Of a DNA stretch of 64,000 nucleotides, positions 9,348 through 27,193 are shown in pieces. The notes under the pieces were generated by a model. The model ran no database searches. It was given only the letters and a program-made list of their open reading frames with translations, and was not told the DNA's origin. The translations under genes were made by a program, and so were the position numbers. This DNA is from a virus. The stretch lies in the UHGV virus genome UHGV-0076294. One strand, written 5' to 3'. Each line of letters starts with the position of its first letter. Position 1 is the first letter of the stretch.

Positions 9348-9405
9348 TTTAATACCTACTGGTTTAGTGCCCCCTAGGACACATTATAATTCATTTTCTG
9401 TAAAA

Positions 9406-10799: not shown

Positions 10800-11999
10800 T
10801 TATTTCGTACCCGCTTCTGCTTGTACGTCATCACGAGACGTCAGGTTAGCGTTAACGTGCACTGGGGCCTGAACCACGCCACCGTATCTCTTGTGGAGAT
10901 AACCTGTATGTGGGTTATCTGCCGCAATGTGGTTTTGTAGGTTTTGGTTCGCCTGACTGATTGCGTTCGTGTTATTATTAACCTGCTGTTTAAGCGCATC
11001 CAGGTTTTGTTGTAACTGATCGATTTTCTGATCGGTTTCTTGGCCATGTTGCTCTAACGCTTCAACACGCTGAATAACCTGATTCAGTTTTGTATTTAAA
11101 TCGTTGACACTCTTTTGCAGTTGTAACACTAACGAGTTCAGGTTCGCTAACGCTAAAGCCATTTTCTGGTAGTTTTGAGCAACCACGTTAAGTTGGTCGT
11201 TCCACGCTTCCAGAGAGCTGACAACAGCGTCAATACGCTTACCTAAAGCTTCATCTGCTTTCTTCAGTGCATTGATTTCCGTAATCGTTGCGTCGATAGC
11301 AGACTGGACGTCACGAATAAGCGCACGGATTTCAGTTTCTGTTAGTCCATTAACCTGATGGATATCAAGTTGGTGGACGTTACCGGTTGCATTGATGTGC
11401 GCATTTAAAGCGTCCAAGAAGTCGTTTTTCAGACTTTCCAGAATCGCTTTAATGTTCTCTAACTGTACCGCATCGCCAGAACTGATCGCGTCCTTAATGC
11501 CCGCCAATACAGCGATGATATATTCAAAGCCATAAATGTCACCTACGTCTTTATACGTCGGCGCTGACGGGAATGTATCTGGTACGTTACGTAAGTCTTT
11601 AAATGCAACTGTACGGTTATCGAGGTTTAGCTCAGCAATCGCTTGTTCGATAGCCACGATGTTTGCAGACTGTGGGCCACCAACTACCTGCGCAGATACC
11701 GTAATGTCTGTCGGAATCGCTGTGTTAGTGACCACAACCGCCATGACAATCTCGCGGTTTTTAGTCAGCTTTTCATAAGCCGGGTGTGCAAAAATCAACT
11801 CATAATCGGTACCACGTTCGTAGGTTGCATCCGGTCGGTTAGCAACGCGCAAACGAAACGTGTCCGCAAAGAACGGGCCGTCAGGAAAAGCAAAAGCACG
11901 GTTTACTTTACCTGTACCTAACGTAACCTGACGCTCCACAGCGTTAGACGTTAGCGAGCCTGTTAAATCTAAAGGATATTGGTAAACAATGGAGGCCAT
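10800..11999 (-). CDS. Tail fibre-like protein with coiled-coil region
   Basis: N-terminal module shared with the three large downstream proteins (PDGPFFADTFRL...GTDYEL); long Q/N/L-rich heptad-like segment; ATG at 11999 preferred over GTG at 12005. Confidence 0.5.
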   Translation of the reverse strand: MASIVYQYPLDLTGSLTSNAVERQVTLGTGKVNRAFAFPDGPFFADTFRLRVANRPDATYERGTDYELIFAHPAYEKLTKNREIVMAVVVTNTAIPTDITVSAQVVGGPQSANIVAIEQAIAELNLDNRTVAFKDLRNVPDTFPSAPTYKDVGDIYGFEYIIAVLAGIKDAISSGDAVQLENIKAILESLKNDFLDALNAHINATGNVHQLDIHQVNGLTETEIRALIRDVQSAIDATITEINALKKADEALGKRIDAVVSSLEAWNDQLNVVAQNYQKMALALANLNSLVLQLQKSVNDLNTKLNQVIQRVEALEQHGQETDQKIDQLQQNLDALKQQVNNNTNAISQANQNLQNHIAADNPHTGYLHKRYGGVVQAPVHVNANLTSRDDVQAEAGTK

Positions 12000-12039
12000 G
12001 GCCACTCTCCTTTATTCGAGACGTCCTTGTCCCGAGTCA

Positions 12040-15000
12040 TTAAGATGTAAACATAAGATTGAACTGGAGTTTGTCGATATCTCGAGTTTCAGCCGGATTC
12101 AACGCATCGAACGTAGTTGCCACATAAACCGTTAGCGTACCATCATCATACGAAGATTTCACCGGCGGATTAGTTCCAGTCTGACCATCTCTCACAACGA
12201 GTGCAGGCTCGCTGGGAAGATTATCAAACTGCCCTTTAACCGCTTTGTATACCAAACCGGACTGTGCAGATAACTCCGTGTCTGTGTACACACAGAACGG
12301 TGTATCGATGTCAGCTTGTTTGATAGTGGTACCGGATTCGACATCAATCAACTGTACTGCTCCAAACTTCGTGCGATAACTTTCATATTCGTTCTTCGGA
12401 ATAACAAAAGTAACGTGAACACGAACTTCTTCAGCGGGCTTAAAGCCAGTATGTTCTTTTTCCAAATACTGATTGGCTGATAGCGTCACTTTTTGTTCGG
12501 CCATCGAACCACCTGCCTGATTTATTCCGTACCGGGCTTCAACAATACCGGTTGGTGCAGCAAGTCGCAATTTCAGAGTTCGATTCGCCGTTCCTGGATT
12601 ACCTGGCACTTGAACGCGCAAACTCAATGCTAAGTAAGCATACGTTCCGGTAGTCGGTTTCGTATACGCACCTATCCATTTCATGTTCGCAGACGCTGCC
12701 TGCGAGTTCTCAGAAGCAGTAGCTGTCGCAATGTTAGCAGCTACCGCTTTCTGCCAGAATTGGTCGGCGCAGTTCTCATACGCTACTCTGGCCACGCTCT
12801 TATAACCCGAATACGTTTCCTGGATTGGTATCTTAGGACGCGTCGTGATGCCAGACAATGAACCCCATTTCTGGCCGTCAACATACCCTTCGCCCTTCGA
12901 CGCAGACGCCGTAGGTGCTTTAACGGGCTTGTTAATCAGTGTTAATAGAGGACCCGTCTTTCTGTCGAACGCTGCCGCTACATCGTGTTGGTCGATAATT
13001 GCTGCGTGGTCTTCCAGCTCTTTCACACGACCCAAGCGTTTTACTTTGTCGATACTGATATCAGTAATACGGCTGGAATCGGTGGTTACTGTCCCAACGA
13101 ACAGTCTTGTTGAAGTATCGGCTAACTGCTCCAAACCGATGCGGTATTGCGCGGTAGAACCCGACACCTCAGCGTGCACGTAGAACGTCTGGTTAGCGTG
13201 ATTGGACGGGAACTCGCTGCTTAAATCCACAGACCACGTTGGGAGTGTATAGCTGCTACTACCGAAATCTAACTTGACTTCTTCAGTCAGATACAGAATC
13301 CAACCTTCCGCTGTTTCCACACCGGCGATGATAACAGCCTGACCTCCGGTTGAGAAGGTCGTGTCGTTAACAAACTCTGCGGCTGTATACGCGTTACCTG
13401 AGCAGAAAACGCGGTCAGCTTTAGAGAAAATCAACGCCATCTTGTCCCAGTTACCCGCACCCATATAGCACCCAGATTCTGGGTTATGTGCAGGAGCCAT
13501 CTGTCGTAACTGCGACTTACCAGGAACGCGAGACCAACCTGAACCTGGGTCGTAGGTATACTTCGCGGCGTAACCTAGTGCGTTTAAGTCCCCGATATTT
13601 CGGATAGTTAACGTATAAGGTAGCCAGATACCGAAGTTAGTTCCATCCGCAGAAGCGAAAATAGGCTGTCCGACGCGACGGGTCTTATTACCAGCCTCCT
13701 CTCTTAACGACTGATAACTTAAACCGTAATCTTTATCCAGGAACCAATCCACCAACTTAAAGGTAGCTGAGTTGAACCGTAAGTAGCCATTCTCTTTAGA
13801 TGGACTCACCATGAAGTAATAGATATCAAGAATTCGACGTCCGTTACTTAAGGTTTTCATGCACGAAACTTGCAACAAGTCAAACTCGCACACGGTATTG
13901 ATACCCAACATCCAAAGAGCAAACAAGGCATTACCGGTTTGATGTGCAGCACTAATACGCTCGTTTGCGTATCCGTTCGCTTCACCAGAAGGCGCACCGT
14001 CAACGATCATCTGAATCATTTTCTGACGATCGGTTTCTTCTAACGTTAAGCGTTCAGAAGACAACGCAAAGTTACCGTAGATGTTACGATACGGGAACGT
14101 TTCTGCTTTGGTCAAATACCAACCATTTAATTGACCGTGACGTTCTTCAGGGATCATGCACGCCGCCATACAGCTAAGCTGTTCGTAAAGCGTTGCATCG
14201 ACTTCACGACGGTTGTTATTCGGTCCGTAGCCACTGTAACCCGGAACGTCGTAAGGTTTATTCGGATCAACTTCCACTTCGATGGTATAACGGTTACGTG
14301 GGTTTGACAACCACACCTTATTCGAACCACCAATTCCGACAGGATGAGAAAGACCGATGGTATAAATAGAACCACGACCTTTATCCCAGGTAAACGTTCC
14401 TTCGCCTGAGGTATTGTTTGGGTTATCGTAACGCAGATAATCGAAAAGCTCTTTGCCTTGCGTTCCTTTAATAGAAACGTTAGGCATCTGGTCTGCATCG
14501 TTAATCTGCCAACAGGAAAGCATCATTCCCGTACCGTTGGGTTTAGCATACGTCGCGAAACAACGATTGTTTGCTTGACCACCGCCCCACTTACGGCTGG
14601 TTTCTACAGTTGAACCATCCGCGAAAGAGAGTGTAGTAGCATCAGCCTTGATGGGGAAGCGTTCGCGGCCTTCTAACGTAACCTTGCCCGTCGACGTATC
14701 GATTGTAAAACTTGTTGCCCATTGACGAAAGTTAATTTGTGAGCTGTCAGCCGCTGCAAACCACACAGTAGGCATATGGTTCACACGAATCACGCCGTCG
14801 CGCACTGCACAAGCATGGTTACATTCTGGACCGTGAACAAAGTTGCAACCAATTGTCCATTTAGCCCGTGCTTCCGGCGTCAAATACGTAAAGAACTGAC
14901 CCGTTTGTGACTCTTCGGTTTTCTGGCCAATGCGTAGGCAGAGGTTATCTCCAAATTGTCCCATCTCCCCGTTTAGTGTTACGCGTTCAAACTCCAGCGT

Positions 15001-17223
15001 GGTGCTAGTAGACAAATCGTCCTTACGTAGACGCCAAGCTGCTACTGCGTAAGCAGAGTTATTTACCGTAGAGCGGAGAAGATAAACGTAATCCTCAACC
15101 AACACAACATCATCGGCTTCTGGCCACGGATTCCAGGTTTGTTCCACAGTACCGCTGGGGTTGCCGTTACGGTACACGGGCATCGTAACGCGACATACCA
15201 CCGTGTGTTTAGTGTGATCCATCGAACCATTAAACAACACCAAATAACGGTTATTATCAGAACCCAGACAAATAATCGCTTCCTGACCACCGATCAATAT
15301 AGCTTTCAGGGTCACTTCAGGATATTTACTCATCCCGGCAGGGTGATATTTCACTGAGGTCTGCTGCGGATTTACAAACGCGTTTGACGTGTTAATGTCA
15401 GCATAGCCGTAATAAATGGCTTCTGTACCCGGTACGCCGTTAGAACCGTTACGGAGCGAATAAACCTTACCCTGCTGATACCCAACAACCCCTTTTTGAT
15501 AAGACTGGTTTTTGGTATAACCCGAATAGTTACCTAGCGCTGGGATAGGTAAGAAGTTCTTGTTACCGAACTTCGCACCACCTACCGTCCACGCCGGTAA
15601 GATGGTATTCAGTTTATCAGAGACTTTCTTAATCTCTTTTGCGAACAGCCACCCTTGACGCGACGTGACAGCTTTATCGTTAGTAGTGTCAATCGCATCC
15701 CAGAGCTGCAAGATGCCGTCAACCGTTGCACTACCAATTGGAATGTTAACCAAGTCAGCAGTGGTGTGTGTATGCGTCTTCAAACTCTTGTTTTTCAACA
15801 CGTTCGTTAACGCTTTCGTCACCGGCTTAGCACTTGGCGTGGTGTTATCCATCTTATCGATACCGAAATCGGTTTTCGTTAAGGTTAACACCATACTGTC
15901 GCCTACCTTAACAAACCCTTTACCGTTAACGGTATAGTCATCGTCAACGTACAGGTCCAAGCGGTCTTTTAATTCGGTTACGGCTTTCTGGGAGATAGCA
16001 GTACCTAACGCCGCAGACGTGGAGATATTCGTAATCGAGAACAACCCATAAACTGATTCGGTCGCTGTGGGAATATTCGCGTTTAACGTAACCGGGTTAG
16101 TCTGTTTTGCGGTACCGTACGGTTTTACAGTGTCTGACGCTTTGAAATACGCGTTTGCTTCGAGCAACGTTACTGACGTCAGGTACATGTTCACCATTTC
16201 TGGCGTAACCAGATACACGGAGTTATAAACTGGCGCTAATACATCCTGTTCTGACCCCGAGTGAACCCAAAGCGTATTCAGACCCGCACTGAATTCAACC
16301 GCTAAACCCGATTCGTTGTTGTCCTGGTCTGCTTTAATCACCAACGGTTGTGGCGAGGTAATTAACCACTTATCACCACGAATACTGATGATGTGGCCAC
16401 CTGACGTTTTAAACGTTAATTCATTACTGTTCGTGGTACCCCATCGACCGTAAACGGTGCCGAGGGCTTCACCCATTAACTGGTCAACGTCCGATTGCTC
16501 AATACCCGCTGAACCCATCAGCGTAGCCAACTCGTCAATCGTCAACCCAAACGCTTTTGTAGCGTCAACAGCACGTCCTAATACGGGAAGAGCAGCAATG
16601 TCATCAGTGGTATAATGATGCGCGTTAGGGTTACGGTGATGCTGGTATAATTCTTCGTCGAAAACCTTTTTCCCGTTCTCGTAAATCAGGTTAGTGACTT
16701 CACTGAACGCAGCATCTAACTCCGTAGAACGCTTAATGATTTTCTTGCGAATGTCTTCTAACGCCTTAACAACCTCATCCCTCAGAATCGCTTCTTCTAA
16801 GTTAGCAGGCGGGTCGATAGGCTGAATAACCGGCGCATACGCCATTAGTTCAGACCAGTCCACGTTACGTGGGTCTTTCAGGTCAGTACGAACTAAGAAC
16901 TTCCCGATTTCAGATTGCGGTACACGATATTGACGTGCTACCCCTAAAATCTCATATTCGATTTCTGTTGCAGTAAGCAACATAAACCCGCCGTAAATCT
17001 GATCTTGTTCAGCTTCTGCGAGTTCTTTAAAGTAATAGCCTAAATAGTAGTCCAACCCCTCAATCAGAGTACGACGTCCGTTAGGCGCGGTATCGTCGGC
17101 TACTGTGAGTTTTAATCCGATACGATAAAAAGGTCCTTCAGGTGGAATGACCACGTTAAATCGGTTAGGGTACGTTGCTGTGCTTAGCGTACCGTTAAAC
17201 TGCGCCGCGTCTTCTCTCGGCAT
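12040..17223 (-). CDS. Large structural protein, tail fibre/spike candidate (1727 aa)
   Basis: SD aggagtc; N-terminal module IPPEGPFYRIGLKL...GLDYYL resembles tail-fibre attachment domains; G/S/T/N-rich beta-like composition. Confidence 0.5.
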   Translation of the reverse strand: MPREDAAQFNGTLSTATYPNRFNVVIPPEGPFYRIGLKLTVADDTAPNGRRTLIEGLDYYLGYYFKELAEAEQDQIYGGFMLLTATEIEYEILGVARQYRVPQSEIGKFLVRTDLKDPRNVDWSELMAYAPVIQPIDPPANLEEAILRDEVVKALEDIRKKIIKRSTELDAAFSEVTNLIYENGKKVFDEELYQHHRNPNAHHYTTDDIAALPVLGRAVDATKAFGLTIDELATLMGSAGIEQSDVDQLMGEALGTVYGRWGTTNSNELTFKTSGGHIISIRGDKWLITSPQPLVIKADQDNNESGLAVEFSAGLNTLWVHSGSEQDVLAPVYNSVYLVTPEMVNMYLTSVTLLEANAYFKASDTVKPYGTAKQTNPVTLNANIPTATESVYGLFSITNISTSAALGTAISQKAVTELKDRLDLYVDDDYTVNGKGFVKVGDSMVLTLTKTDFGIDKMDNTTPSAKPVTKALTNVLKNKSLKTHTHTTADLVNIPIGSATVDGILQLWDAIDTTNDKAVTSRQGWLFAKEIKKVSDKLNTILPAWTVGGAKFGNKNFLPIPALGNYSGYTKNQSYQKGVVGYQQGKVYSLRNGSNGVPGTEAIYYGYADINTSNAFVNPQQTSVKYHPAGMSKYPEVTLKAILIGGQEAIICLGSDNNRYLVLFNGSMDHTKHTVVCRVTMPVYRNGNPSGTVEQTWNPWPEADDVVLVEDYVYLLRSTVNNSAYAVAAWRLRKDDLSTSTTLEFERVTLNGEMGQFGDNLCLRIGQKTEESQTGQFFTYLTPEARAKWTIGCNFVHGPECNHACAVRDGVIRVNHMPTVWFAAADSSQINFRQWATSFTIDTSTGKVTLEGRERFPIKADATTLSFADGSTVETSRKWGGGQANNRCFATYAKPNGTGMMLSCWQINDADQMPNVSIKGTQGKELFDYLRYDNPNNTSGEGTFTWDKGRGSIYTIGLSHPVGIGGSNKVWLSNPRNRYTIEVEVDPNKPYDVPGYSGYGPNNNRREVDATLYEQLSCMAACMIPEERHGQLNGWYLTKAETFPYRNIYGNFALSSERLTLEETDRQKMIQMIVDGAPSGEANGYANERISAAHQTGNALFALWMLGINTVCEFDLLQVSCMKTLSNGRRILDIYYFMVSPSKENGYLRFNSATFKLVDWFLDKDYGLSYQSLREEAGNKTRRVGQPIFASADGTNFGIWLPYTLTIRNIGDLNALGYAAKYTYDPGSGWSRVPGKSQLRQMAPAHNPESGCYMGAGNWDKMALIFSKADRVFCSGNAYTAAEFVNDTTFSTGGQAVIIAGVETAEGWILYLTEEVKLDFGSSSYTLPTWSVDLSSEFPSNHANQTFYVHAEVSGSTAQYRIGLEQLADTSTRLFVGTVTTDSSRITDISIDKVKRLGRVKELEDHAAIIDQHDVAAAFDRKTGPLLTLINKPVKAPTASASKGEGYVDGQKWGSLSGITTRPKIPIQETYSGYKSVARVAYENCADQFWQKAVAANIATATASENSQAASANMKWIGAYTKPTTGTYAYLALSLRVQVPGNPGTANRTLKLRLAAPTGIVEARYGINQAGGSMAEQKVTLSANQYLEKEHTGFKPAEEVRVHVTFVIPKNEYESYRTKFGAVQLIDVESGTTIKQADIDTPFCVYTDTELSAQSGLVYKAVKGQFDNLPSEPALVVRDGQTGTNPPVKSSYDDGTLTVYVATTFDALNPAETRDIDKLQFNLMFTS

Positions 17224-17239
17224 CGTAAAGACTCCTACT

Positions 17240-17280
17240 TTTTAAATAAAATGGATACCCCTCCCCATTACAGGGAGGGG
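17240..17280 (-). terminator. Hairpin terminator between large fibre genes (minus strand)
   Basis: cccctcccc-attaca-gggagggg; minus strand tail T-rich. Confidence 0.55.
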
Positions 17281-17318
17281 TTACCTACGGACACACAACT
17301 GCCCGCAGGCAGCCTGTC

Positions 17319-20300
17319 CTAAGTACGATCCCCTAACTGCTTCCCGTTAAGTTCTCGTTTCAGTACAGAAAGTATCCATTTCCACGCTTTACTCGTGATA
17401 TGGTACGGATTCCGTTTCTCCATTAAGAACTGCTTTTCACCGCTACGCAGTTCGAAGCTCTGCGCATTAAGGTAGTCCTGACGATAGATTTTCTCATCAA
17501 AAACTTCCAATGAACAGGTAAAGTTAAGTTCGTACCCTTCAGGATTATTACCTGGTGGTTCTAAGACAATATAAATGTCCTGACCTACGCGTAAATCCCT
17601 TGGAGTGATGGTAATCGCTTTACCTACATCAGCGCTTGTTGACAGTGCAAACTCCGCACTATCGGTGGACGCTAAGTACGGGTCTTTCCCTGCATCGCCT
17701 ATAATTACCTTACCCGGCCAGTTGCACTTCACCGTCCCGGACACCTTTGCAATCCGATATTGTTGTCTCTCAACACCTTGTGCAAAACGGAGAATGAGTT
17801 TGTGACGATAACGACTTGCAGCGGCTTTAGTCGTACTCCACTCATTGTTCCAGGAGGTATGAAGTTCATTTTTCTTGGCCATTAATGCGCCACGAGACAG
17901 CTTACGTGGGAAGAATTGTGCTGGTAATTGCCCATCGTGGGAGGTCGCCACTCCCCCTTGTCCGGTTGGAAGTGCTATTGTTTCCGTAGGACAATAACTT
18001 AACTCGTACTCGTATGTTGCAGGATCGATCAATTTCTGATAGTAATCGCCGTCCTTACTGTTTGCTAACCAACCAACGGAAGAGTCCATATACGATTCAA
18101 ACAGTGAACGTAAATAATGATACTTATCAATATCGATATTACCCGTTTTTGGATCAATCAGCGCATGGTTAATAGTGAGGAGACACTTTTCACTCAAACC
18201 TTTAAACGCTAAACCCACTCCATCGCCGGTAAAGTAGTCTACCAGGTCAAATGGAAACGCCATCTCTATTTGTCGCAAGTCGATAGTCGTTGAACCAAAC
18301 TGCGAAAAAGATAGTGCTAATCGAAGTACACGAGTATTAACGTTATAACGATAACGAATCATCCCACGTGGCGCATGGTTAGCGGAGATCTTATCACCGC
18401 TTGGTCCCCAGCCAATTAAGTCGAGTATTTCGGCATTCGTTACTTCTCCATTAAACAAAACGTCTTTAGTCGTGACTTCAACCGATGTTTCCCTTCCGGC
18501 ATCCATTAACATCGAACCGTTATTCAACTCGAAGTTCTTAAGCCAGACTTCTGAAGTCGAACCGGCACCTACGCCCACCTTACAAGTTTTACTAGTAAGG
18601 TTAATACGCACATAACGACGTCCCGCCGTACCGCCCTGCGAGCTTGCACACAAAATAAGATCAGGTGCCGCAGACAGTGCCTTGGTCCCTCCAATGTCGT
18701 CGACATCGAAAACGAATGAGCCTTCGAACGTTGGTGCGTTATTTTCCTTCGGGTTAAATGGCGTAAACCAACAATAAGGCGTCGCACCCTCGGTTGAGAA
18801 AATCAACTCTAAGTCAGTTTTAACATTTAATCCGTGGGAATAAGAGAAAAGTCCCCGACTTAAGGTACAAAGCGTACCGCCACTTCCGCTACCTAACATT
18901 TTTCGATAAACTAAGGCACGTGGTTCAGCAATAGCGCGATTTAACAACGGCAGTCGTGGGTTATCCGTTAACGTCCAGTCGACAGAGCTGAGTCCGTGTG
19001 CCTTGCGAGTACCAATGTGTTCACTAACCTCGGCACTTTTCCCGAAATCGAACGTGGTTTCAAATCTCACGGTTTTATTCGCGTAGGATGATACACCCGC
19101 AACAATATCAACATAGCCGATATAACCACGCTCAGGATCGACCTCAAATCCTTGAACTGGTTCAGCACGCGAATACAAAGAGCCTGTGAGCATGTTAACG
19201 TACAGATAATGACGAATCCCTACATGCGTTGTAACAAACTCCTGAAGAAGCTCTACGCGCGTTTCAGGGCCACTGAAGTAAACAGGATAGTCACCATCGT
19301 AAACTTCAAATTGTACAGCTGCCGATTTTGCAGTATCGCTACATTCTGCTTTAACAGCAATTGTGTAGTTTTCAACATCTGGAGACGTTCCATAGTTCAT
19401 TAACAATGGCGACTCACCAGTAGCACCCACAACACCATTTACATAAACGGTTATTGTCCCACCGCCAGCGGCATAAACAAACAGCCTTTTCTGATGGGCT
19501 TTGACGCGCGTTTTAGCCAGCACCGATACAACGGACTGATCGCCCATCTGCGTAGCGCTTTTACCTACCGGAACTGACTGAAACCCCATTATTGGAGGAT
19601 CAACAATTCCATCCCAACTAATCCCGGTACCTTTACTAACCTTACCCGTAGGCCAAGTCAGTTCAAGCTGGTTATTCGGTGAGAACCAGTTAAACATTGG
19701 GGTAGTTTGCAGGTCAATCGCACCGGTAACGGTACTGTCGCCTTTCATACCGTTCAGCAAATAGAAACATTTCAAATCCTGAACAGAAATTGCAGTACCC
19801 TGGCTATTGAAACGCCAGTCTGCGCCTTTCACAGCAGCGAAATCCGTTACTGTTCCTTCTTTCGCGTTTGCTATCGCAGCAGCCACCACATCTAAACGGG
19901 CTGAAAGCTCTTTTAAGATGTCCGGTACAACCGCACGGTTCTCAACCAACCCGTTCTGGTTAGATGCATAACGACCAATACCGTAAATCGACTGCGAGGC
20001 TTTATAAATGCCTAACTCTGACCAGTCGTGGTGGTGACCGACATCTGCTAAACCACTAACCGATATATTCAGTTCAGTAGACAACGGTTTGTCGAGGTCT
20101 GCGGTGTTATCCGCTTGCCCTAATCCCAGGTCAGCTTTCGTGATCGTCCTGGAGCCGTCGTTCATTGACTTACCGTTAATCATGGTCGTTTTAGTCACGT
20201 ACCCTGATAAGTCGGTTGAATATGGCGTTAGTGACGCAGGGGTTGCTGCAACCCCAACCGTTTCTGTGCCTTTACCGGTTTTAAGTTTAACGACACCTTT

Positions 20301-21524
20301 TTCAGTGGTTGACGCTTTCGTCGGGTCGATAGCCCCCACGATAGGATCGGCTCGAGAACCTTTACCAGTGAAACTGATCCCATTACGGCCTTCGATATAC
20401 ACTTTGGAGTCATCAGGGTCGCTACCGCCACCAGAACCCGCATCCGGGTCTTGTTGGTATTCCATAAGTGCGGTGGTGGTCAGTAACGGGTTACCGTTTA
20501 GGGTGAGTTTGTTCATCCCTAAAGCATCTCCCGTTGACTCGATGCGTAACGTGTTTTTACCAGCACGCCAGTTAATGTAACGTCCCGCATCAGTGCCTTC
20601 CAGATGCCCTACCGCTAATACCACAGAACCATCGGATTTTAACGTAAAGCCGTCATTTGCAAAAACGATTTCTGACTCGCCGTTTTTTGAACGGAACTGT
20701 GCGCGGTTTCCTGACACCGTACAGTTAAACACACCCTGTACTTCCGAAGAAATCCAGTGGGAGATATACGTGTCGATAACCGACTGTGGCAAACGAAACG
20801 CTTTCAGTTCTTCCGTTAACGCTTTCAATTTTAACCCGTACGCCATAAAGGTGTCAGGTGTTTTCAGGTCAACGGGATGTGCATTAATTTGTGCGCTCGT
20901 GGTTTCGTGCGGGTTCGTCGCGGCGATATGTGCTGGGTAGTTAAACGCCTCGATTTCTTTACCCAACGCAGTCACTAGCGCTTTAACTTCGGCTAATTTA
21001 TCTTTAATTAGCTGGTTAGCGTCATCGGTTTTCAACTCAATATCGTGAATCGCTGACGCTAAGTATTTTTTGTTCAGCAAATCCGCCCAGGACGTTGCCG
21101 CAGGCGTAGCTGGGTATAACGACGGTCTACCGTCTAACAACAGCCAGTCTACACTGACTGGGTTATTCAAATATTTCACCAACTCGTCGAGCATGTCAAC
21201 GAACGGGTCGTAGAACGTACCGCCGAGCATTTGTCCTTCAAAGGTTACAATACCTTTAATGGATGGGTTGATAAGGTGTACCCCACAATACACGTTGGCT
21301 GCTACCGAGTCATCCAGTTCTGTCAGTTGGTATTGCAGTTCGTAGTCCACCCCACGACTTAGTGGGGTGGTTGAACCCGGTTGTCTGACGACCAAATCTT
21401 CAAAGAACGGGCGATGGTCTAAAATCACCACCCGATCGTTGTTGTTTTCTGACCCGATGATACGCTCCTCTAAGAAGTGATTCTCGGTTTTCGTCCCCCG
21501 AGGATCGTAAGGATACGCTTTCAT
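17319..21524 (-). CDS. Large structural protein, tail fibre/spike candidate (about 1400 aa)
   Basis: SD ggaga before ATG at 21524; N-terminal module LDHRPFFEDLVV...GVDYEL shared with neighbours. Confidence 0.5.
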   Translation of the reverse strand: MKAYPYDPRGTKTENHFLEERIIGSENNNDRVVILDHRPFFEDLVVRQPGSTTPLSRGVDYELQYQLTELDDSVAANVYCGVHLINPSIKGIVTFEGQMLGGTFYDPFVDMLDELVKYLNNPVSVDWLLLDGRPSLYPATPAATSWADLLNKKYLASAIHDIELKTDDANQLIKDKLAEVKALVTALGKEIEAFNYPAHIAATNPHETTSAQINAHPVDLKTPDTFMAYGLKLKALTEELKAFRLPQSVIDTYISHWISSEVQGVFNCTVSGNRAQFRSKNGESEIVFANDGFTLKSDGSVVLAVGHLEGTDAGRYINWRAGKNTLRIESTGDALGMNKLTLNGNPLLTTTALMEYQQDPDAGSGGGSDPDDSKVYIEGRNGISFTGKGSRADPIVGAIDPTKASTTEKGVVKLKTGKGTETVGVAATPASLTPYSTDLSGYVTKTTMINGKSMNDGSRTITKADLGLGQADNTADLDKPLSTELNISVSGLADVGHHHDWSELGIYKASQSIYGIGRYASNQNGLVENRAVVPDILKELSARLDVVAAAIANAKEGTVTDFAAVKGADWRFNSQGTAISVQDLKCFYLLNGMKGDSTVTGAIDLQTTPMFNWFSPNNQLELTWPTGKVSKGTGISWDGIVDPPIMGFQSVPVGKSATQMGDQSVVSVLAKTRVKAHQKRLFVYAAGGGTITVYVNGVVGATGESPLLMNYGTSPDVENYTIAVKAECSDTAKSAAVQFEVYDGDYPVYFSGPETRVELLQEFVTTHVGIRHYLYVNMLTGSLYSRAEPVQGFEVDPERGYIGYVDIVAGVSSYANKTVRFETTFDFGKSAEVSEHIGTRKAHGLSSVDWTLTDNPRLPLLNRAIAEPRALVYRKMLGSGSGGTLCTLSRGLFSYSHGLNVKTDLELIFSTEGATPYCWFTPFNPKENNAPTFEGSFVFDVDDIGGTKALSAAPDLILCASSQGGTAGRRYVRINLTSKTCKVGVGAGSTSEVWLKNFELNNGSMLMDAGRETSVEVTTKDVLFNGEVTNAEILDLIGWGPSGDKISANHAPRGMIRYRYNVNTRVLRLALSFSQFGSTTIDLRQIEMAFPFDLVDYFTGDGVGLAFKGLSEKCLLTINHALIDPKTGNIDIDKYHYLRSLFESYMDSSVGWLANSKDGDYYQKLIDPATYEYELSYCPTETIALPTGQGGVATSHDGQLPAQFFPRKLSRGALMAKKNELHTSWNNEWSTTKAAASRYRHKLILRFAQGVERQQYRIAKVSGTVKCNWPGKVIIGDAGKDPYLASTDSAEFALSTSADVGKAITITPRDLRVGQDIYIVLEPPGNNPEGYELNFTCSLEVFDEKIYRQDYLNAQSFELRSGEKQFLMEKRNPYHITSKAWKWILSVLKRELNGKQLGDRT

Positions 21525-21537
21525 CAAAAAAATCTCC

Positions 21538-24500
21538 TTAATCGCGAATGATTACCGCCTGCACTTTATTGCTGGTGTCGATAAACGACATTACGCGCTC
21601 CTTATTAAGATAAGGAGGTATCGGTAACGCAGCATAATCCGCCAGGTTGTTATTAAATTCAGTTGCCACTAACGCATTAAGCGTTTCGGGGTCTGAACTG
21701 GCACCGGCCAATTCCATAACGCGCACACGATTTAATGAGGAATAGTTGCTAATATAGTCCAACAACGTACCATAGACTTTATTCGCAGTTGCACTGTCTC
21801 CCGCAGAACGGACGTCGGCACGGACCTCATCCTCATAAAGTCCCCCTAAACCGTAGTAAATAGGGGTATACGGATCGTTAACGATAGGTTCAATATTGAA
21901 GCCAGTTAAACGGTCGGTTAATGGGATTTTCTGCGTAGTTCCCCCTGCTGCCGTACAGCTTACATATTTGTCCGTCGCAGATAAATGCACCCCGACAGTA
22001 TACGCAGTCCCCGCTAAGGTCAGTCTTGCACTAAACGTTATTGCGTTGGTTGCACTACGGGTGTGGGTAAATGATACTACAGGTTGTAATGAACTCCACG
22101 GTGCAGGTGTAACACGTTTCGTTGGTGTGAAACCTAACACTACTGATTTCCCGCTACCGAAGTTCAAACCGAACCCTGCGTAACAATACTCACCGTTACT
22201 GTCAGTTAAACGATATCCGCGAGTGATAAGTAACGACAACCGCATAAACTCGCCATCGGTGTTTTTCCAACAACCTAAAATGGTTTCTAACACCGTGCCG
22301 GTTTTTGCGTTGCTTTCTGTTTCCCAACTTACCCGCATTCCTGCGTTCTTAAAAGCTGGGAACATGTTGTGGATAAACCCGTGAACGTTATCGCTTACCC
22401 CTTTCGCATCAAACACCCACTTCGACGCAAGCTGATCGTATTTCACACCATCGAGTGCTTTATATCCACCGCCAACCACATAACGCCAATCTGCCTCGCC
22501 ACGCACAACCGCTTGAAGTCCAGAAGCCCAGCAGGGCGCACCTACTGTTAAATTGCTTAACCCCAGCACTGCACGCGGAGCAGAACGCTGAATATGTGCG
22601 TTGTCATTAGCGACGTGGTCTTTCAGCTCACGGAAATCGCCTAACCGTGTCACGTTTCGGAGTTCCACTACGTCAACTTGGGAAAGTTCGTTAACAATAA
22701 GCTTCCCAACACGCGTCATGGTGTCGGTTTCAGCTTGATTGTAACTATCGTGGACGATATACATTGCTCTATTGTCGACGATATCAACAAAGATCCCTGC
22801 GTGGATTAACGTTTGTGGGTTTGTGAAACGTTCGGTAACGTTAACCGTCATTAACGGTACGTCATACGTCTCACCACCAACGAAATACGTTGAAGCGGGG
22901 AGTGTAAGCAGAATGTTATCCTTAACGGTAACGTCAATTAAGTCGTTACCGGACTTACCAAAGCGAATAATGTCAACGCGAGCACCCGAGTCAACGCCAC
23001 CGACGGTATTCTCCAAATCTTCAATCTGGGAAGTCTGCGCCATCACCACACTACCATCGAGTGCTAAAGTGGCATCATCCACTTCCAGACCGAATTTAAT
23101 CAGACCCCGTTTCGTGGTGTCTGCGTTCGCAACACCGAATACGGAAGACGGGTGTTGGTGAACCTTCGGTGAGTATTTGTCCAGCTCGGTCTGCTGTGCA
23201 ACAGAAATCGGTAAGTCAACGTCCGGGGTATTCGCAACGTTACCTAAACCAAAGGTAATTTTGTCGATAGTAACCGAACTGGTAAGCTGCATGTCGTTGA
23301 TGTACGACTTGGCGGCAACTAACTTACCGGTAAACTCTGCGTCCAGTTTTTCAATTAACGCAGGGGTTGCTGCGAGGTTTTCAGCCGTACCGAATTCGTC
23401 CGTTAACTGCCAGCAGGCTAACGTCGTGACGTCGTTGGCAACCGGAAGGATAAACGTTGCGACAAACGGCGACGCTTTAATCCCGCTACCAGTAAGTTCC
23501 ACTGTAGCTGTAGATGCACCGTAGAATAATCCCGTGCCGCCTGCGGTATTACCCGGCAAATACGGCGCTACCGTAGTGGGGTCTAAGAGTTTCTTACCAC
23601 GCCACAATAATCCACGATCATCAGGGTATAGCACAAGCTGGTTATCGCCCGCCTGTAACGTTACCGGGTTGTTACCCACGTTAACGTCAGTAGAACCTTG
23701 ACCGATGAACTTAATGGATTTCGGATCAACGACAAACTGGGCACCTAAACGTGTCTCGTCAACAACATCAGGTGCTTTCTTAATGGTAACCGTGTTACCT
23801 TTGTTTTGCGAACTAATGGTGACAGCATCAGCAACGTTGTTAATCCACGTTTTAAAATGATATTGATTTTCCAACGCTTCTAGCGCAGAATCCATGTTAT
23901 CAAAATTAATTCTGGCACTGTAAGTTTTACCGTTTACCGTAACGACAGCATCGAACACGTTCCCCGTGCGCTTCAACTGGAAACGTAATGAGAAATCGCT
24001 GTTAGGTATTGCCGGATCAGGAGCTTGAGAAATATACCTTACCTGCGGAACTGTACCAACAGTATTAAGGCTTAGCGAAACTTCAATAGAGATAGTATCG
24101 CCCCAGATTCCGGCTTTTATCTCGACAAACTTGCCAGCGTTTGTGCCCGAGTTCTCGTAAAACCGCATAATCGCGGAACCGACCGCCTCATTACCCGACG
24201 CAGTTTTTATACCAGTGGCAATAAAGTCAATATCTTGCAGGTTAGCGGGTACCGCATTAAAAGAAGCACTAAATCCATTCTTCGTTCCTGTGTAACGAAG
24301 CTCGCCGTGATACCTGTGACCACTACTAACATAGCTTTCGCTAAAATAAGGGCTCACGTATTTAGACATCGAAACCGGATCAACTTCTGTCGTGAACGAA
24401 GTAAAACCGGGCAGCGTTCCAATGGTTCCGTCGGCCGTTTTCGTAGTTGACGTGCGCAGTAGTTTCTTTTGCGCAGTCAATGTTTCTTGCGTTGGATACT

Positions 24501-25863
24501 TAGCATTAACATAATCTGTTAACTGCGGCTTCGTTTTTCCGTAAGCTAACGCTGTATCCGTCGCAATACCGTTCAACTCTAACGCACGGATCGGGCCCCA
24601 CGTGTCGCTATGCGGATTGTCCTTACGTGTAACGTGTTCGTGCGCAGGTGCGTTGCGATAGAGCTGTTCTACTAACTGATGGTACTTAACGATTAGCTGA
24701 TAAACGTCGTTACTTACGTCTGCTTCTGGCGCACCAGGTAACGCAAGGAATTGAGCGTAATCGTTTTCAGCCGCCCACCAGTTTAAGTTAACGTTGGTTT
24801 TGTATTTCAGCCACTTCGCAACATCCGTTTTGGTGTAACCTGCTGAGAATTCGTCTGGCGGTGTGTCAACGTTAAAGGTGTAGTCCATAGACTGTTTGTT
24901 GGTCTTCACCTCGATAACGTATACACCGTTACCCGGTTGACGAACAACGCTAAACGTTAACTCGCCTTTTAATTCATCGTCGGTCAAACCGTTGATTAAC
25001 GTATAATCATAATCAGTTGAACCGCTGCCTAACGCAACCGTCAGTCGTAGGCCGATTTTACGTTGTTTTAATTGGAGACGAAGGATACTTGCGCCACCGT
25101 TCGCGTAGCACAACATCCAATCGATTTGTTCGTTCGGATTAATACTCCCCATGTTCGGAAAAATAGCCGGGATACGGTATTTCATCGACAGGGAATATTC
25201 ATTTAACGTGGTGGTTTTGTACGTAACGGAGAAACGACGTTTAGCGGTATTGTAAGTATACCCACCTTTGTTGTCGTACGTTGCGTACTGTTCAGACGTG
25301 ATAACCGTACCATTAGCGCGATGCTCGATATCTAACGTGTTACGCGCAATCGGGTCTACCCGATTCACCACGTTACCTAACGAATCACCTAAGCCTGCAA
25401 TGGCTTGCATTAATTCCAGTTCACCTTTCCAGTTTTCCCAGTCGAACTGAATGTCGACCGGTGGAAAGTAAACATCGCCGATAACGGTATCCCATTGACA
25501 CGCAGACGGGTATTTATCTTTATTGAGTTCGCGTTCTGCGGTAATCTGTTCTTGGGTCGCTTCACCGCAACCTACGGCGTGGTAATCTACCGTGAAATTC
25601 GATTTGTATTTGTCGTTAACAATCCAAATCATCCCGTGCACGAGGTAGGCTGTGCGCAACATACCGGTCTCGTACGGGTGTGTAATAACGTAATCGTCGC
25701 CTAAGGTCAGTATTTTGCCGCCGCTCTTGACCACCAGGGATGTGGTGAAAAAAGGGGCGTGGGCAGGTACCAACATTCGGTACTTCGTACCAATGACGGC
25801 GACCGCTTCACCGGTTATTTTATTCCCCGGTTCTTTGAAGTGTGGGTCTAGGACGACAGCCAT
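21538..25863 (-). CDS. Large structural protein, tail fibre/spike candidate (1441 aa)
   Basis: SD aggagtag; N-terminal module PAHAPFFTTSLVV...GDDYVI shared with neighbours. Confidence 0.5.
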   Translation of the reverse strand: MAVVLDPHFKEPGNKITGEAVAVIGTKYRMLVPAHAPFFTTSLVVKSGGKILTLGDDYVITHPYETGMLRTAYLVHGMIWIVNDKYKSNFTVDYHAVGCGEATQEQITAERELNKDKYPSACQWDTVIGDVYFPPVDIQFDWENWKGELELMQAIAGLGDSLGNVVNRVDPIARNTLDIEHRANGTVITSEQYATYDNKGGYTYNTAKRRFSVTYKTTTLNEYSLSMKYRIPAIFPNMGSINPNEQIDWMLCYANGGASILRLQLKQRKIGLRLTVALGSGSTDYDYTLINGLTDDELKGELTFSVVRQPGNGVYVIEVKTNKQSMDYTFNVDTPPDEFSAGYTKTDVAKWLKYKTNVNLNWWAAENDYAQFLALPGAPEADVSNDVYQLIVKYHQLVEQLYRNAPAHEHVTRKDNPHSDTWGPIRALELNGIATDTALAYGKTKPQLTDYVNAKYPTQETLTAQKKLLRTSTTKTADGTIGTLPGFTSFTTEVDPVSMSKYVSPYFSESYVSSGHRYHGELRYTGTKNGFSASFNAVPANLQDIDFIATGIKTASGNEAVGSAIMRFYENSGTNAGKFVEIKAGIWGDTISIEVSLSLNTVGTVPQVRYISQAPDPAIPNSDFSLRFQLKRTGNVFDAVVTVNGKTYSARINFDNMDSALEALENQYHFKTWINNVADAVTISSQNKGNTVTIKKAPDVVDETRLGAQFVVDPKSIKFIGQGSTDVNVGNNPVTLQAGDNQLVLYPDDRGLLWRGKKLLDPTTVAPYLPGNTAGGTGLFYGASTATVELTGSGIKASPFVATFILPVANDVTTLACWQLTDEFGTAENLAATPALIEKLDAEFTGKLVAAKSYINDMQLTSSVTIDKITFGLGNVANTPDVDLPISVAQQTELDKYSPKVHQHPSSVFGVANADTTKRGLIKFGLEVDDATLALDGSVVMAQTSQIEDLENTVGGVDSGARVDIIRFGKSGNDLIDVTVKDNILLTLPASTYFVGGETYDVPLMTVNVTERFTNPQTLIHAGIFVDIVDNRAMYIVHDSYNQAETDTMTRVGKLIVNELSQVDVVELRNVTRLGDFRELKDHVANDNAHIQRSAPRAVLGLSNLTVGAPCWASGLQAVVRGEADWRYVVGGGYKALDGVKYDQLASKWVFDAKGVSDNVHGFIHNMFPAFKNAGMRVSWETESNAKTGTVLETILGCWKNTDGEFMRLSLLITRGYRLTDSNGEYCYAGFGLNFGSGKSVVLGFTPTKRVTPAPWSSLQPVVSFTHTRSATNAITFSARLTLAGTAYTVGVHLSATDKYVSCTAAGGTTQKIPLTDRLTGFNIEPIVNDPYTPIYYGLGGLYEDEVRADVRSAGDSATANKVYGTLLDYISNYSSLNRVRVMELAGASSDPETLNALVATEFNNNLADYAALPIPPYLNKERVMSFIDTSNKVQAVIIRD

Positions 25864-25930
25864 TATCTACTCCTATAGTCCGTGGGCGTCGAGTTCATAC
25901 TATGACTTGAATCTATTGAGGAAAAGAGCT

Positions 25931-27193
25931 GTGACTACTGCTTATCAAGTACGGCCTGACAGCGCTTTTGGCTTCTCTCGAGAGACCCGTACCTGGGGAG
26001 CCATCGACGTCACGCAACCCTTAGAAACCTTGTGTTCTGATTACCATATTTTCGAAGTCGGTCTGAGTGCGCTTGGTAAAGACTATACGTTAATTAGCCA
26101 ATATCACCTCGCTGACTTACAAAACCGTACCGATACGTTACAAGACTGGCTGAATGAAAAAGCCGGTGTGGTTATCTCTGCGTTGAAAGACGGTTTACCG
26201 ACGTTAGAGTTTGATTGGGCACACTACCAATCGATTAATGCTGATGTTCCAGTAGAAACCTACCTGTGTCCTCACGGTTATCACTACAGTCAAGATTTCA
26301 GTATAGACGATGCTGACGACGTTGTGATTGTTTGCGAAGATAAATGGAGAGACAAATACCGTAACGGGGTGTTGTACAACATCAACGGACAATGGGTACC
26401 ACATCAGTCGGATACTGTTGGTGTACGTTTACCGGGTGCGGGTAAGATAGTACGTCGTGCAGGGACACCGGATATCGGGTGCATGGTCTTTAGTAAATTG
26501 GGGAATGTTAAAACGTACCCCATTGCTAATTTGACCTTAAACAAACTCGACACCACCCGTGACTATTATTCCACGTTAATGATTTCTTTACCGGAATCTA
26601 TTACGGGTAAAACCGTGGGGTTTGTTATCGGGGGTCTGATACACTGGTTACCGGTTACTGGGTACTTCTCCGACAAAGCCATTATGGTCTCGTTACCGAA
26701 CTTTGACGTTGCGCGTACTGTGCTAGAAACCCGACGTTATTACGACTGGGATAGCATCGGCGTTGGCGATCTGTCATCCCCGACCAGCGTACAGCGTATC
26801 CGCAACCCAGAAACGTTAAAGGCGCTTTTAACCCACGAGTCGTCGTTTATCTTTACGGTGGATAATCCGTATCTGGAAGAAGAAGTTGTGGGGGTTTCTC
26901 ACAACGCTATCTGGGGACGTTTATACCTTAAAGATCCTAATGATCCTGATGGGGAAAAACAACTGGGCTATCTGTTAAACCGCTTCGGTAAAACCGTTGC
27001 TTATTGGCCGACGTGGGAAGAAGGGGAATGGGTATTTAACACCACGGAATTCGACAGTCAAAACTACGTGTTCCGTGAAGCCCGCTGGTATAACCAGAAG
27101 AAAATTAACGATGCACAGGCAATCGTAGGGCCTTTCGGTCCCTGGGAAAAAGTCTATTTGGAAATGCATCGTTTCCGTGCAAGAAAAAAATAA
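25931..27193 (+). CDS. Hypothetical protein
   Basis: ORF track start 25715 lies inside the divergent fibre gene; GTG at 25931 with SD gaggaaaagag is the likely start; followed by strong terminator. Confidence 0.45.
   Translation: MTTAYQVRPDSAFGFSRETRTWGAIDVTQPLETLCSDYHIFEVGLSALGKDYTLISQYHLADLQNRTDTLQDWLNEKAGVVISALKDGLPTLEFDWAHYQSINADVPVETYLCPHGYHYSQDFSIDDADDVVIVCEDKWRDKYRNGVLYNINGQWVPHQSDTVGVRLPGAGKIVRRAGTPDIGCMVFSKLGNVKTYPIANLTLNKLDTTRDYYSTLMISLPESITGKTVGFVIGGLIHWLPVTGYFSDKAIMVSLPNFDVARTVLETRRYYDWDSIGVGDLSSPTSVQRIRNPETLKALLTHESSFIFTVDNPYLEEEVVGVSHNAIWGRLYLKDPNDPDGEKQLGYLLNRFGKTVAYWPTWEEGEWVFNTTEFDSQNYVFREARWYNQKKINDAQAIVGPFGPWEKVYLEMHRFRARKK

What the first reader, a model, noticed from the sequence alone, without database searches (positions are those of the whole stretch)
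10800..25863. Four consecutive large proteins share an N-terminal module; likely a multi-fibre/spike receptor-binding set
Seen in sequence: the 399-, 1727-, ~1400- and 1441-aa products all begin with a related segment of about 80 aa with the pattern hydrophobic-x-P-x(2,4)-PFF/PFY ... G-x-DY-x-L. Their downstream regions are unrelated, long and G/S/T/N-rich. Established knowledge: phages with several receptor-binding proteins often reuse a conserved N-terminal attachment domain on divergent distal domains. Inference: this is a tail fibre/tailspike module with four alternative or branched receptor-binding proteins. The radical SAM/Cys-rich cluster is transcribed in the same direction immediately downstream of it.
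Basis: partly seen in the sequence, partly recalled or inferred. Interest (0 to 1): 0.45.

Follow-up and report, generated by a model that had tools for sequence, protein, structure and literature searches.

The report
Jumbo-phage baseplate fibre gene set
These four neighbouring genes encode the tail-fibre proteins of an SPN3US/phiKZ-type giant phage; all four start with the same baseplate-anchoring domain, an arrangement already described for related phages, so the finding is correct but largely ordinary.

Summary
Four consecutive minus-strand genes (1441, 1402, 1727 and 399/401 aa) begin with one homologous module. It is about 160-185 aa long, not 80, and no other ORF in the 64 kb window carries it. 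The claim that the downstream regions are unrelated is only partly right: B and C are collinear for about 500 aa, A, B and C share a fibre-shaft block, and A and C share a distal domain.

The genes are orthologues of Salmonella phage SPN3US gp170, gp169, gp168 and gp167. Published wild-type versus tailless proteomics scores all four as tail proteins. The module is the "gp131-like N-terminal domain" of phiKZ gp131/133/134/135. A 2026 cryo-EM atlas places that domain, six copies per site with a six-helix bundle, at 12 fibre-attachment sites beneath gp130. The gp130 homologue is the divergently transcribed neighbour (25931-27193).

The distal half of the 1727-aa protein models as a beta-propeller, like lectins and glycosidases, not as a beta-helix depolymerase.

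The tail-fibre interpretation is therefore supported. "Four alternative or branched fibres" may really be a co-assembled hexameric fibre base. This is a new member of a known kind, of low interest. Minor new points are the 400-aa protein as a fourth family member, a lineage-specific 200-aa insertion in A, and a very large module family that has no Pfam match.

The parts
21538..25863 (-). Gene A, 1441 aa, orthologue of SPN3US gp170 / Asesino gp190. It has the N-module, two insertions, a fibre-shaft block and a distal domain.
25360..25863 (-). gp131-like N-terminal module of A (aa 1-168)
23764..24396 (-). Lineage-specific insertion in A (aa about 490-700). It is absent from SPN3US gp170 and Asesino gp190, and has no match in PHROGs or phage records.
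23002..23694 (-). Fibre-shaft block of A (aa 724-954), with the GLGxxxNTxDxDxPxS and HxH motifs. It is shared with B and C.
22384..22878 (-). Distal domain of A (aa 996-1160), homologous to C aa 1321-1498
17319..21527 (-). Gene B, 1402 aa (TTG start; ATG one codon later), orthologue of SPN3US gp169 / Asesino gp189
20988..21527 (-). gp131-like N-terminal module of B (aa 1-180)
19941..20378 (-). Fibre-shaft block of B (aa 384-529)
12040..17223 (-). Gene C, 1727 aa, orthologue of SPN3US gp168 / Asesino gp188
16699..17223 (-). gp131-like N-terminal module of C (aa 1-175)
15601..16302 (-). Fibre-shaft block of C (aa 308-541). It gives a marginal match to the AP22 gp53 putative tail fibre, PDB 4mtm.
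14389..15489 (-). Predicted beta-propeller region of C (aa about 579-945; about 28 strands in the model)
12730..13263 (-). Distal domain of C (aa 1321-1498), homologous to A aa 996-1160
10800..12005 (-). Gene D, 401 aa (399 from ATG at 11999), orthologue of SPN3US gp167 / Asesino gp187. It has the N-module plus a long coiled coil and no globular distal domain.
11451..12005 (-). gp131-like N-terminal module of D (aa 1-185). The beta-sandwich at residues 11-125 has pLDDT of about 90.
10923..11339 (-). Predicted continuous helix / coiled coil of D (aa 223-361)
25931..27193 (+). Divergently transcribed gene, 420 aa (GTG start with GAGGA upstream), homologous to phiKZ gp130 / SPN3US gp171. In phiKZ this is the outer-baseplate protein beneath which the fibres dock.
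   Evidence: PMC13250141
17257..17281 (-). Hairpin with an 11-bp stem followed by a T-rich tail, in the gap between B and C. It is a possible internal terminator or RNA-stability element.

Best explanation
The four genes encode the peripheral baseplate fibre set of an SPN3US-like, phiKZ-related giant myovirus.

Each protein begins with a gp131-like N-terminal domain: a small beta-sandwich at about residues 11-125, then a linker and an amphipathic helix, then an H-x(n)-N-P/A/V-H motif. By homology to phiKZ, this part docks under the gp130-type outer-baseplate protein, which here is encoded divergently at 25931-27193. In phiKZ the domains dock in groups of six, with their helices forming a six-helix bundle.

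The variable C-terminal parts project towards the cell and bind the host surface. They comprise the fibre-shaft repeats in A, B and C, a beta-propeller in C, and so far unassigned beta-rich domains in A and B. D is a short member that carries only a coiled coil.

Shown here:
- homology of all four modules to each other and to phiKZ gp131/133/134/135;
- synteny with a gp130 homologue;
- the beta-propeller fold in C;
- the N-to-C decline in conservation.

Shown by others, for orthologues: location in the tail (SPN3US) and position at the fibre-attachment sites (phiKZ).

Inferred: co-assembly of the paralogues into hexameric fibre bases, and carbohydrate binding by the distal domains.
For: Identity of the phage and synteny:
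- The window is SPN3US/phiEaH2/Asesino-like and syntenic with Asesino gp187-190 and SPN3US gp167-170.

Homology of the module:
- A profile of the four window N-termini hits phiKZ gp131, gp135, gp134 and gp133 at residues about 5-170 (E 3e-21, 1e-20, 2e-10, 2e-7).
- hhalign of the C family against gp131 aligns the N-terminal 24-236 only (E 9e-6).
- The PFF, GxDY and H..NPH landmarks sit at the same positions in phiKZ gp131.

The neighbour:
- The upstream divergent ORF is homologous to phiKZ gp130 (E 3e-11).
- The arrangement "gp130 homologue next to N-module paralogues" recurs in phiKZ, PhiPA3, SPN3US and Asesino (4 paralogues each) and in RSF1 and LucasX (2 each).

Published evidence for orthologues:
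- SPN3US gp167-171 are tail proteins: 293-572 PSMs in wild type against 2-5 in tailless particles (PMC10052503 Table S2).
- gp168-170 are described as "paralog family C", baseplate/tail-fibre candidates similar to gp131 (PMC5694885; PMC5105663).
- The phiKZ atlas reports 12 fibres, each site having six gp131-like N-domains and a six-helix bundle beneath gp130 (PMC13250141).

The module family as a whole:
- It has 3333 representative clusters. Among the 150 best hits listed, all but one repeat-protein false positive match within the first about 200 residues (most at about 1-170), on proteins of 159-2164 aa.
- Distant members end in Peptidase_S74 or Gp53-like_C domains.

Structure and conservation:
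- The D model has a confident N-domain and long helices.
- Identity to orthologues falls from 70-86% at the N-terminus to 20-40% at the C-terminus.
Against: - There is no virion or structural data for this phage itself.
- The N-domain model has no significant match in the PDB copy (best E 0.03). The phiKZ atlas coordinates were evidently not in that copy, so structural identity with the gp131 N-domain rests on sequence profiles.
- In phiKZ the fibre region was fitted with AlphaFold models into 4.4-6 A density, and its authors call the heterohexamer composition a candidate.
- The distal domains of A and B were not modelled.
- Receptor binding is not shown for any member of the family.
Confidence: 0.85

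Rival explanations
1. Four independent homotrimeric fibres or spikes. Each occupies its own docking position on the baseplate and offers alternative receptor specificities.
For: - Homotrimers are the rule for phage fibres (established knowledge).
- Distant N-module proteins carry the Peptidase_S74 intramolecular chaperone typical of homotrimers.
- Paralogue numbers of 2 or 4, multiplied by 3, would fill one or two six-domain sites with pairs of homotrimers.
- A, B and C have different lengths and different distal domains.
Against: - The phiKZ atlas describes the two sites per star lobe as nearly indistinguishable and proposes a mixed gp131x3+gp133+gp134+gp135 base.
- SPN3US PSM per kDa is not 1:1:1:1: about 2.4 (gp167): 1: 1.4: 1. 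This measure is crude.
Confidence: 0.35
2. An obligate hetero-oligomeric fibre. A D homotrimer and one copy each of A, B and C form each six-domain base. One fibre would then carry three different distal heads.
For: - This is analogous to the phiKZ candidate heterohexamer.
- The spacing between the H..NPH landmark and the DNTxDxDKPxS landmark is nearly equal in B (273) and C (264), and is inferred to be about 265 in the A-type orthologues of SPN3US and Asesino, once the about 205-aa insertion of this lineage's A is subtracted.
- SPN3US abundance of about 2.4:1:1.4:1 approaches 3:1:1:1.
- A beta-propeller is a monomeric fold, compatible with splayed single-chain heads.
Against: - There is no direct evidence.
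- A carries an extra about 208 aa between the N-module and the H..NPH motif.
- Spectral counts per kDa favour small proteins.
- No orthology maps D to gp131.
- RSF1 and LucasX have only two paralogues in the locus examined.
Confidence: 0.3
3. Mainly structural outer-baseplate or strut proteins with no direct role in receptor recognition. Host recognition would be carried out by other proteins.
For: - D has no globular distal domain.
- No receptor binding has been demonstrated for any family member.
- The SPN3US papers say "baseplate/tail fiber candidate".
Against: - The steep N-to-C decline in conservation, and the replacement of distal parts between close relatives (the SPFM phages match only 2-4% of C's distal 1200 aa), are typical of host-range determinants.
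- C's distal region has a lectin/glycosidase-like propeller.
- The shaft carries fibre motifs and weak tail-fibre PHROG hits.
Confidence: 0.1
4. Head or packaging proteins, as the PHROG category label suggests.
For: The PHROG category "head and packaging" is attached to phrog_2163, 7557 and 8078.
Against: The label comes from the generic annotation "virion structural protein". The SPN3US orthologues are lost in tailless particles.
Confidence: 0.02

Closest known systems
SPN3US gp167-gp170 ("paralog family C" = gp168/169/170) with gp171; Asesino gp187-191
   Same: - Gene order, strand arrangement and sizes match: 400/1727/1376/1237 aa against 401/1727/1402/1441 aa.
- Identity is 45-77%.
- The divergent gp171 neighbour and the downstream radical-SAM genes are the same.
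   Different: - A has a 200-aa insertion with no known homologue.
- The distal parts have diverged to 20-40% identity.
- The literature lists three family members; the 400-aa protein is shown here to carry the same module.
- The window has a second Cys-rich / radical-SAM pair downstream.
phiKZ gp131, gp133, gp134, gp135 (gp131-like N-terminal domain; fibre base under gp130)
   Same: - The N-terminal module is homologous over about 160 aa, with the same PFF, GxDY and H..NPH landmarks.
- There are four paralogues in a row.
- A divergent gp130 homologue sits alongside.
- One member has a beta-propeller in its distal part.
   Different: - Three of the window proteins are 2-4 times longer than any of the phiKZ paralogues (457-771 aa).
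- There is no sequence similarity beyond about residue 240.
- There is no counterpart of the small gp132.
- Which window protein, if any, plays the role of gp131 is unknown.
T7 gp17-type N-terminal fibre attachment domain (Pfam Phage_T7_tail)
   Same: - Both are a small N-terminal beta domain that anchors a fibre.
- The motif order is similar (PF..Y/F ... TDY/G.DY).
- The top four Foldseek hits of the D model are podovirus tail complexes (E 0.03-0.07).
   Different: - There is no Pfam hit.
- hhalign probability is 16% over 30 columns.
- T7 gp17 docks on the gp11/gp12 tail of a podovirus, not on a myovirus baseplate.
Beta-propeller lectins and glycosidases, and the phage phi92/K1F endosialidase propeller
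   Different: - Identity is 5-13%.
- No catalytic residues were examined.
- No Peptidase_S74 chaperone is present in the window proteins.

Membership tests
phiKZ gp131-like fibre proteins / SPN3US paralog family C | N-terminal domain homologous to the gp131 N-terminus | tested here: met
   The profile of the window modules hits phiKZ gp131/135/134/133 (E 3e-21 to 2e-7). hhalign of the C family against gp131 gives E 9e-6. phrog_2163 hits all four.
phiKZ gp131-like fibre proteins / SPN3US paralog family C | The module sits at the extreme N-terminus and is followed by a helix (the bundle element) and an H-x(n)-NPH motif | tested here: met
   Hits lie at about residues 1-170 in nearly all of the 150 best representatives. 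The D model has helices at 160-205. H..NPH lies at 195-203 in B, C and D, and at 408 in A after an insertion.
phiKZ gp131-like fibre proteins / SPN3US paralog family C | Several paralogues in tandem, beside a divergently transcribed gp130/gp171 homologue | tested here: met
   The window has four paralogues and a gp130 homologue at 25931-27193. The same layout occurs in phiKZ, PhiPA3, SPN3US, Asesino, RSF1 and LucasX.
phiKZ gp131-like fibre proteins / SPN3US paralog family C | Protein is part of the tail of the virion | not testable with these tools
   Known only for orthologues: SPN3US gp167-171 are scored "Tail" (PMC10052503 Table S2).
phiKZ gp131-like fibre proteins / SPN3US paralog family C | Six N-domains and a six-helix bundle at each fibre-attachment site | not testable with these tools
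   This is a cryo-EM observation in phiKZ only. No multimer prediction was available.
phiKZ gp131-like fibre proteins / SPN3US paralog family C | gp131-type seven-bladed beta-propeller at the distal end | tested here: inconclusive
T7 gp17-type N-terminal attachment domain | Match to Pfam Phage_T7_tail, or profile-profile homology to gp17 N-termini | tested here: not met
   No Pfam hit at E<=10. hmmsearch gives E>10, and hhalign gives probability 16% over 30 columns.
T7 gp17-type N-terminal attachment domain | Structural similarity of the N-domain | tested here: inconclusive
   The top Foldseek hits are 9efk, 7y22_e, 7ey9_b and 8ck1_B, all podovirus tail complexes, but with E 0.03-0.07 and TM 0.3-0.4. 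Chain identities were not verified.
Tailspike depolymerase (right-handed parallel beta-helix) | Beta-helix fold in the distal region | tested here: not met
   The model of C aa 528-1727 gives propeller hits and no beta-helix hits. There are no pectate-lyase or beta-helix Pfam hits in A-D. The A and B distal parts were not modelled.
Fibres with a C-terminal intramolecular chaperone (Peptidase_S74) | PF13884 domain at the C-terminus | tested here: not met
   It is absent from A-D. It is present in distant N-module proteins such as LucasX_307.

The most novel reading that the evidence does not exclude
The four paralogues may not be alternative fibres but subunits of one hetero-hexameric fibre base: a D trimer plus one copy each of A, B and C. 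A single fibre would then splay into three different monomeric receptor-binding heads.

A second possibility is that the gp131-like module is a very distant relative of the T7 gp17 anchor domain. That would unite podovirus and giant-myovirus fibre attachment.
Probability: 0.25. Interest if true: 0.55.

Novelty: new member of a known kind. Interest (0 to 1): 0.22.

Why it matters
The result assigns function to about 15 kb of otherwise "hypothetical" sequence in an unsequenced relative of SPN3US. It identifies the likely host-range determinants, the distal parts of A, B and C, and their docking partner.

It also adds the 400-aa protein as a fourth carrier of the gp131-like module. That gives four module proteins, as in phiKZ and PhiPA3, and bears on the proposed six-domain fibre base.

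More generally, the module is a very large family with no Pfam match (3333 representative clusters at 50% identity). A curated model would improve fibre annotation in giant phages.

Tried and rejected
- Pfam and NCBIfam scans of the four proteins and of their N-modules found nothing except coiled-coil noise in D.
- Single-sequence searches against PDB sequences gave only a marginal hit of C to the AP22 gp53 tail fibre (E 0.12) and coiled-coil noise for D.
- Profile searches of the N-module and of the shaft block against PDB found nothing useful. The phiKZ atlas chains appear not to be in the PDB copy.
- Foldseek of the D model against PDB gave no hit below E 1e-3.
- The T7 gp17 hypothesis was tested with hmmsearch and hhalign against T7, K1F, gh-1 and phiKMV N-termini and was not significant.
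- A test for internal duplication in A (residues 160-480 against 480-730) was negative.
- The inserted segment of A had no PHROG hit and no phage tblastn match.
- The sigma-70 promoter and terminator scan was no better than shuffles, as expected for a phage that uses its own RNA polymerases.
- The viral-contig locus search returned only close relatives, so diverse loci were taken from annotated phage records instead.
- The first word-indexed homologue search with the four-sequence profile returned mostly fragments.
- The "head and packaging" PHROG label was rejected on the basis of the published proteomics.
Full report
**What is there.** Positions 10800-25863 hold four consecutive minus-strand ORFs:
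- A, 21538-25863, 1441 aa.
- B, 17319-21527, 1402 aa with a TTG start; an ATG follows one codon later.
- C, 12040-17223, 1727 aa.
- D, 10800-12005, 401 aa from GTG, or 399 aa from the ATG used by its homologues.

The gaps between them are 10, 95 and 34 nt. Megablast and tblastn place the window in the SPN3US / phiEaH2 / Asesino group of giant phages related to phiKZ. D is 77% identical to its SPN3US counterpart. At the DNA level only small parts match, at 72-77%. The genes are syntenic with Asesino gp190-187 and SPN3US gp170-167, whose sizes are 1237, 1376, 1727 and 400 aa.

**Checking the observation.** The similarity is homology rather than chance.
- phrog_2163, a profile built independently of this window, hits the N-termini of D, C, B and A with E 3e-104, 4e-44, 3e-30 and 2e-15.
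- BLASTP links B to C (5e-18) and B to D (8e-8).
- A profile of the four N-termini, searched against 1.84 billion representative proteins, found 3333 proteins at E<=1e-3 and 2227 at E<=1e-10. Among the 150 best hits listed, all but one repeat-protein false positive match within the first about 200 residues (most at about 1-170), in proteins of 159 to 2164 aa.
- A 148-sequence profile of that family hits exactly these four among the 257 six-frame ORFs of at least 60 aa in the window.
- As a caveat, leave-one-out profiles built from the window's own three other sequences recover B and D but not A or C. Membership of A and C depends on outside profiles.

The module is about 160-185 aa, not 80.

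"Downstream regions unrelated" is only partly correct.
- B and C are collinear over about 500 residues.
- A 724-954, B 384-529 and C 308-541 share a shaft block with the motifs AS/T-x-x-x-G-h-h-x-h, GLG-x-x-DNT-x-D-x-DKP-x-S and HxH.
- A 996-1160 is homologous to C 1321-1498.
- G+S+T+N content is about 30% downstream in A, B and C against 24.5% background, but it is not raised in D.

**What the module is.** The window profile hits the N-termini of phiKZ gp131, gp135, gp134 and gp133 (E 3e-21, 1e-20, 2e-10 and 2e-7; module positions 3-160 against residues about 5-170). It hits nothing else among the neighbouring phiKZ proteins. hhalign of the C family against gp131 aligns only gp131 residues 24-236 (E 9e-6). 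In gp131 the PFF, GxDY and H-x-NPH landmarks lie at 46, 66 and 185, matching B, C and D.

The ORF transcribed divergently from A runs from 25931 to 27193 (GTG start preceded by GAGGA; 420 aa). It is homologous to phiKZ gp130 (E 3e-11) and is 75-82% identical to SPN3US gp171 and Asesino gp191. The layout "gp130 homologue divergent from a run of N-module genes" recurs in several phages. phiKZ, PhiPA3, SPN3US and Asesino have four module genes each. Ralstonia phage RSF1 and Xanthomonas phage LucasX have two each in the 30-kb loci examined.

**What is known about these families.**
- The SPN3US papers define "paralog family C" as gp168, gp169 and gp170, and describe them as baseplate/tail-fibre candidates similar to phiKZ gp131. 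These proteins are absent from a tailless mutant. gp168 is "expected essential" and gp171 is essential (PMC5105663; PMC5694885).
- In triplicate proteomics, gp167, 168, 169, 170 and 171 gave 293, 530, 572, 361 and 83 PSMs in wild type against 0.7-5 in tailless heads. All are scored "Tail" (PMC10052503 Table S2).
- gp167, the orthologue of D, is not listed in family C. The profiles here show that it carries the same module.
- The 2026 phiKZ atlas reports twelve peripheral fibres. [quoted passage not shown] The candidate composition is gp131x3 + gp133 + gp134 + gp135. The authors fitted AlphaFold models into 4.4-6 A density (PMC13250141).

**Structure predictions.** The D model used 81 aligned sequences and has a mean pLDDT of 76. 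It shows a confident beta-sandwich with one helix at residues 11-125 (pLDDT about 90), helices at 160-205, and a continuous helix at 223-361. D is therefore the module plus a coiled coil, with no globular head.

Foldseek against the PDB gave no match below E 1e-3. The four best hits (E 0.03-0.07) are chains of podovirus tail complexes: LME-1, Kp7, T7 entry 7ey9 and Carin-1. However, Pfam finds nothing, and hhalign against the N-termini of T7, K1F, gh-1 and phiKMV gives 16% probability over 30 columns, aligning just the PFF...G.DY stretch. I score that link as not established.

**Other evidence for a host-recognition role.**
- Identity to the SPN3US and Asesino orthologues falls from 70-86% in the first 100 residues to 20-40% at the C-termini of A, B and C. 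D stays at 67-84% throughout.
- Among close relatives, the distal 1200 residues of C are replaced outright. The SPFM phages match only 2-4% of that region.
- Distant carriers of the module end in Peptidase_S74 (chaperone of endosialidase) or Gp53-like_C tail-fibre domains, above the Pfam thresholds.
- The shaft block of A, B and C each hits phrog_35419, "tail fiber protein", at E about 1e-4.
- C's shaft block gives a marginal match to the AP22 gp53 fibre, PDB 4mtm.

**How it most likely works.** The N-modules anchor the proteins under the gp130-type protein at the outer rim of the baseplate. The helix after the module contributes to a bundle. The shaft and distal domains reach the cell surface, with C presenting a lectin- or glycosidase-like propeller. 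This much I hold at about 0.85.

How the four combine is open. In the phiKZ model there are six domains per site and two sites per sixth of the baseplate, which makes twelve domains. That number could be filled in two ways:
- By four homotrimers. This fits the paralogue counts of 2 or 4.
- By mixed bases. SPN3US PSM per kDa is about 6.7: 2.8: 3.8: 2.7 for gp167:168:169:170, or 2.4:1:1.4:1. That lies between 1:1:1:1 and the 3:1:1:1 expected for "D3 + A+B+C", but spectral counts are too crude to decide. The spacing from the H..NPH landmark to the DNT motif is 273 in B and 264 in C. It is inferred to be about 265 in the A-type proteins of SPN3US and Asesino, after subtracting the about 205-aa insertion from the 469 measured in this lineage's A. 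Equal spacing would permit in-register co-assembly, but it is equally explained by common descent.

**Novelty.** The phenomenon is published for SPN3US and phiKZ: paralogous fibre proteins sharing an N-terminal anchor next to the docking protein. This locus is a new member. The small additions are:
- D-type proteins as a fourth family member.
- An insertion of about 200 aa in A (residues about 490-700), absent from SPN3US and Asesino and without any match in PHROGs or 50,697 phage records.
- The size of the module family, which has no Pfam match.

**Surroundings.** Immediately downstream, on the same strand, lie two very Cys-rich paralogues of 131 and 132 aa, with 21 and 20 Cys in GCSGxC-type repeats. 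They are interleaved with three radical-SAM ORFs. SPN3US and Asesino have a simpler version of this cluster. RSF1 also has radical-SAM, Fe-S and 2OG genes directly after its fibre genes. I did not pursue whether this linkage is functional.

Noticed in passing
window 10340-10735 (-) and 8949-9347 (-), with 9406-10320, 6433-7371 and 5127-6449 (-): Two paralogous small proteins (phrog_6085; 131 and 132 aa) carry 21 and 20 cysteines in GCSGxC / C-x2-4-C repeats after a Cys-free leader of about 50 aa. They are interleaved with three radical-SAM ORFs. This looks like RiPP-type precursor and maturase pairs. From the annotation tables, the SPN3US and Asesino loci appear to have a simpler version, and the window appears to have an extra pair.
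   Followed up: partly
L018 (Ralstonia phage RSF1) 17656-28023, compared with window 5127-10320: Radical-SAM, Fe-S oxidoreductase and 2OG-Fe(II) oxygenase genes directly follow the two N-module fibre genes in the distantly related RSF1. The linkage between the fibre cluster and the radical-SAM cluster therefore appears conserved across giant-phage lineages.
   Followed up: no
window 23719-24426 (-), A residues about 480-715: This segment is inserted relative to SPN3US gp170 and Asesino gp190. It has no PHROG hit and no tblastn match in 50,697 phage records. It is not a duplication of A residues 160-480.
   Followed up: yes
window 17257-17281 (-): A strong hairpin (11-bp stem, 7 G-C pairs, T-rich tail) lies in the 95-nt gap between genes B and C. 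It is the only large intergenic gap within the four-gene run. A similar hairpin at 27199-27223 follows the gp130 homologue.
   Followed up: no
window 25864-25930: Only 67 nt separate the divergent starts of gene A (ATG at 25863, minus strand) and the gp130 homologue (GTG at 25931). The mechanical ORF call from TTG at 25715 overextends the gp130 homologue by 72 codons and overlaps gene A.
   Followed up: yes
P0015, P0017, P0009; loci L009-L012 and L015: Proteins 94-98% identical to D and C occur in hundreds of Logan assembly members and in several IMG/VR contigs. A 98%-identical fragment is filed under Salmonella Enteritidis. Very close relatives of this phage are therefore common in public data although no named isolate matches.
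   Followed up: no
window 27654-28619 (-): A baseplate assembly protein homologue (phrog_3216, E 1e-113) lies just beyond the gp130 homologue, as in SPN3US and Asesino. The fibre cluster therefore abuts other baseplate genes.
   Followed up: partly
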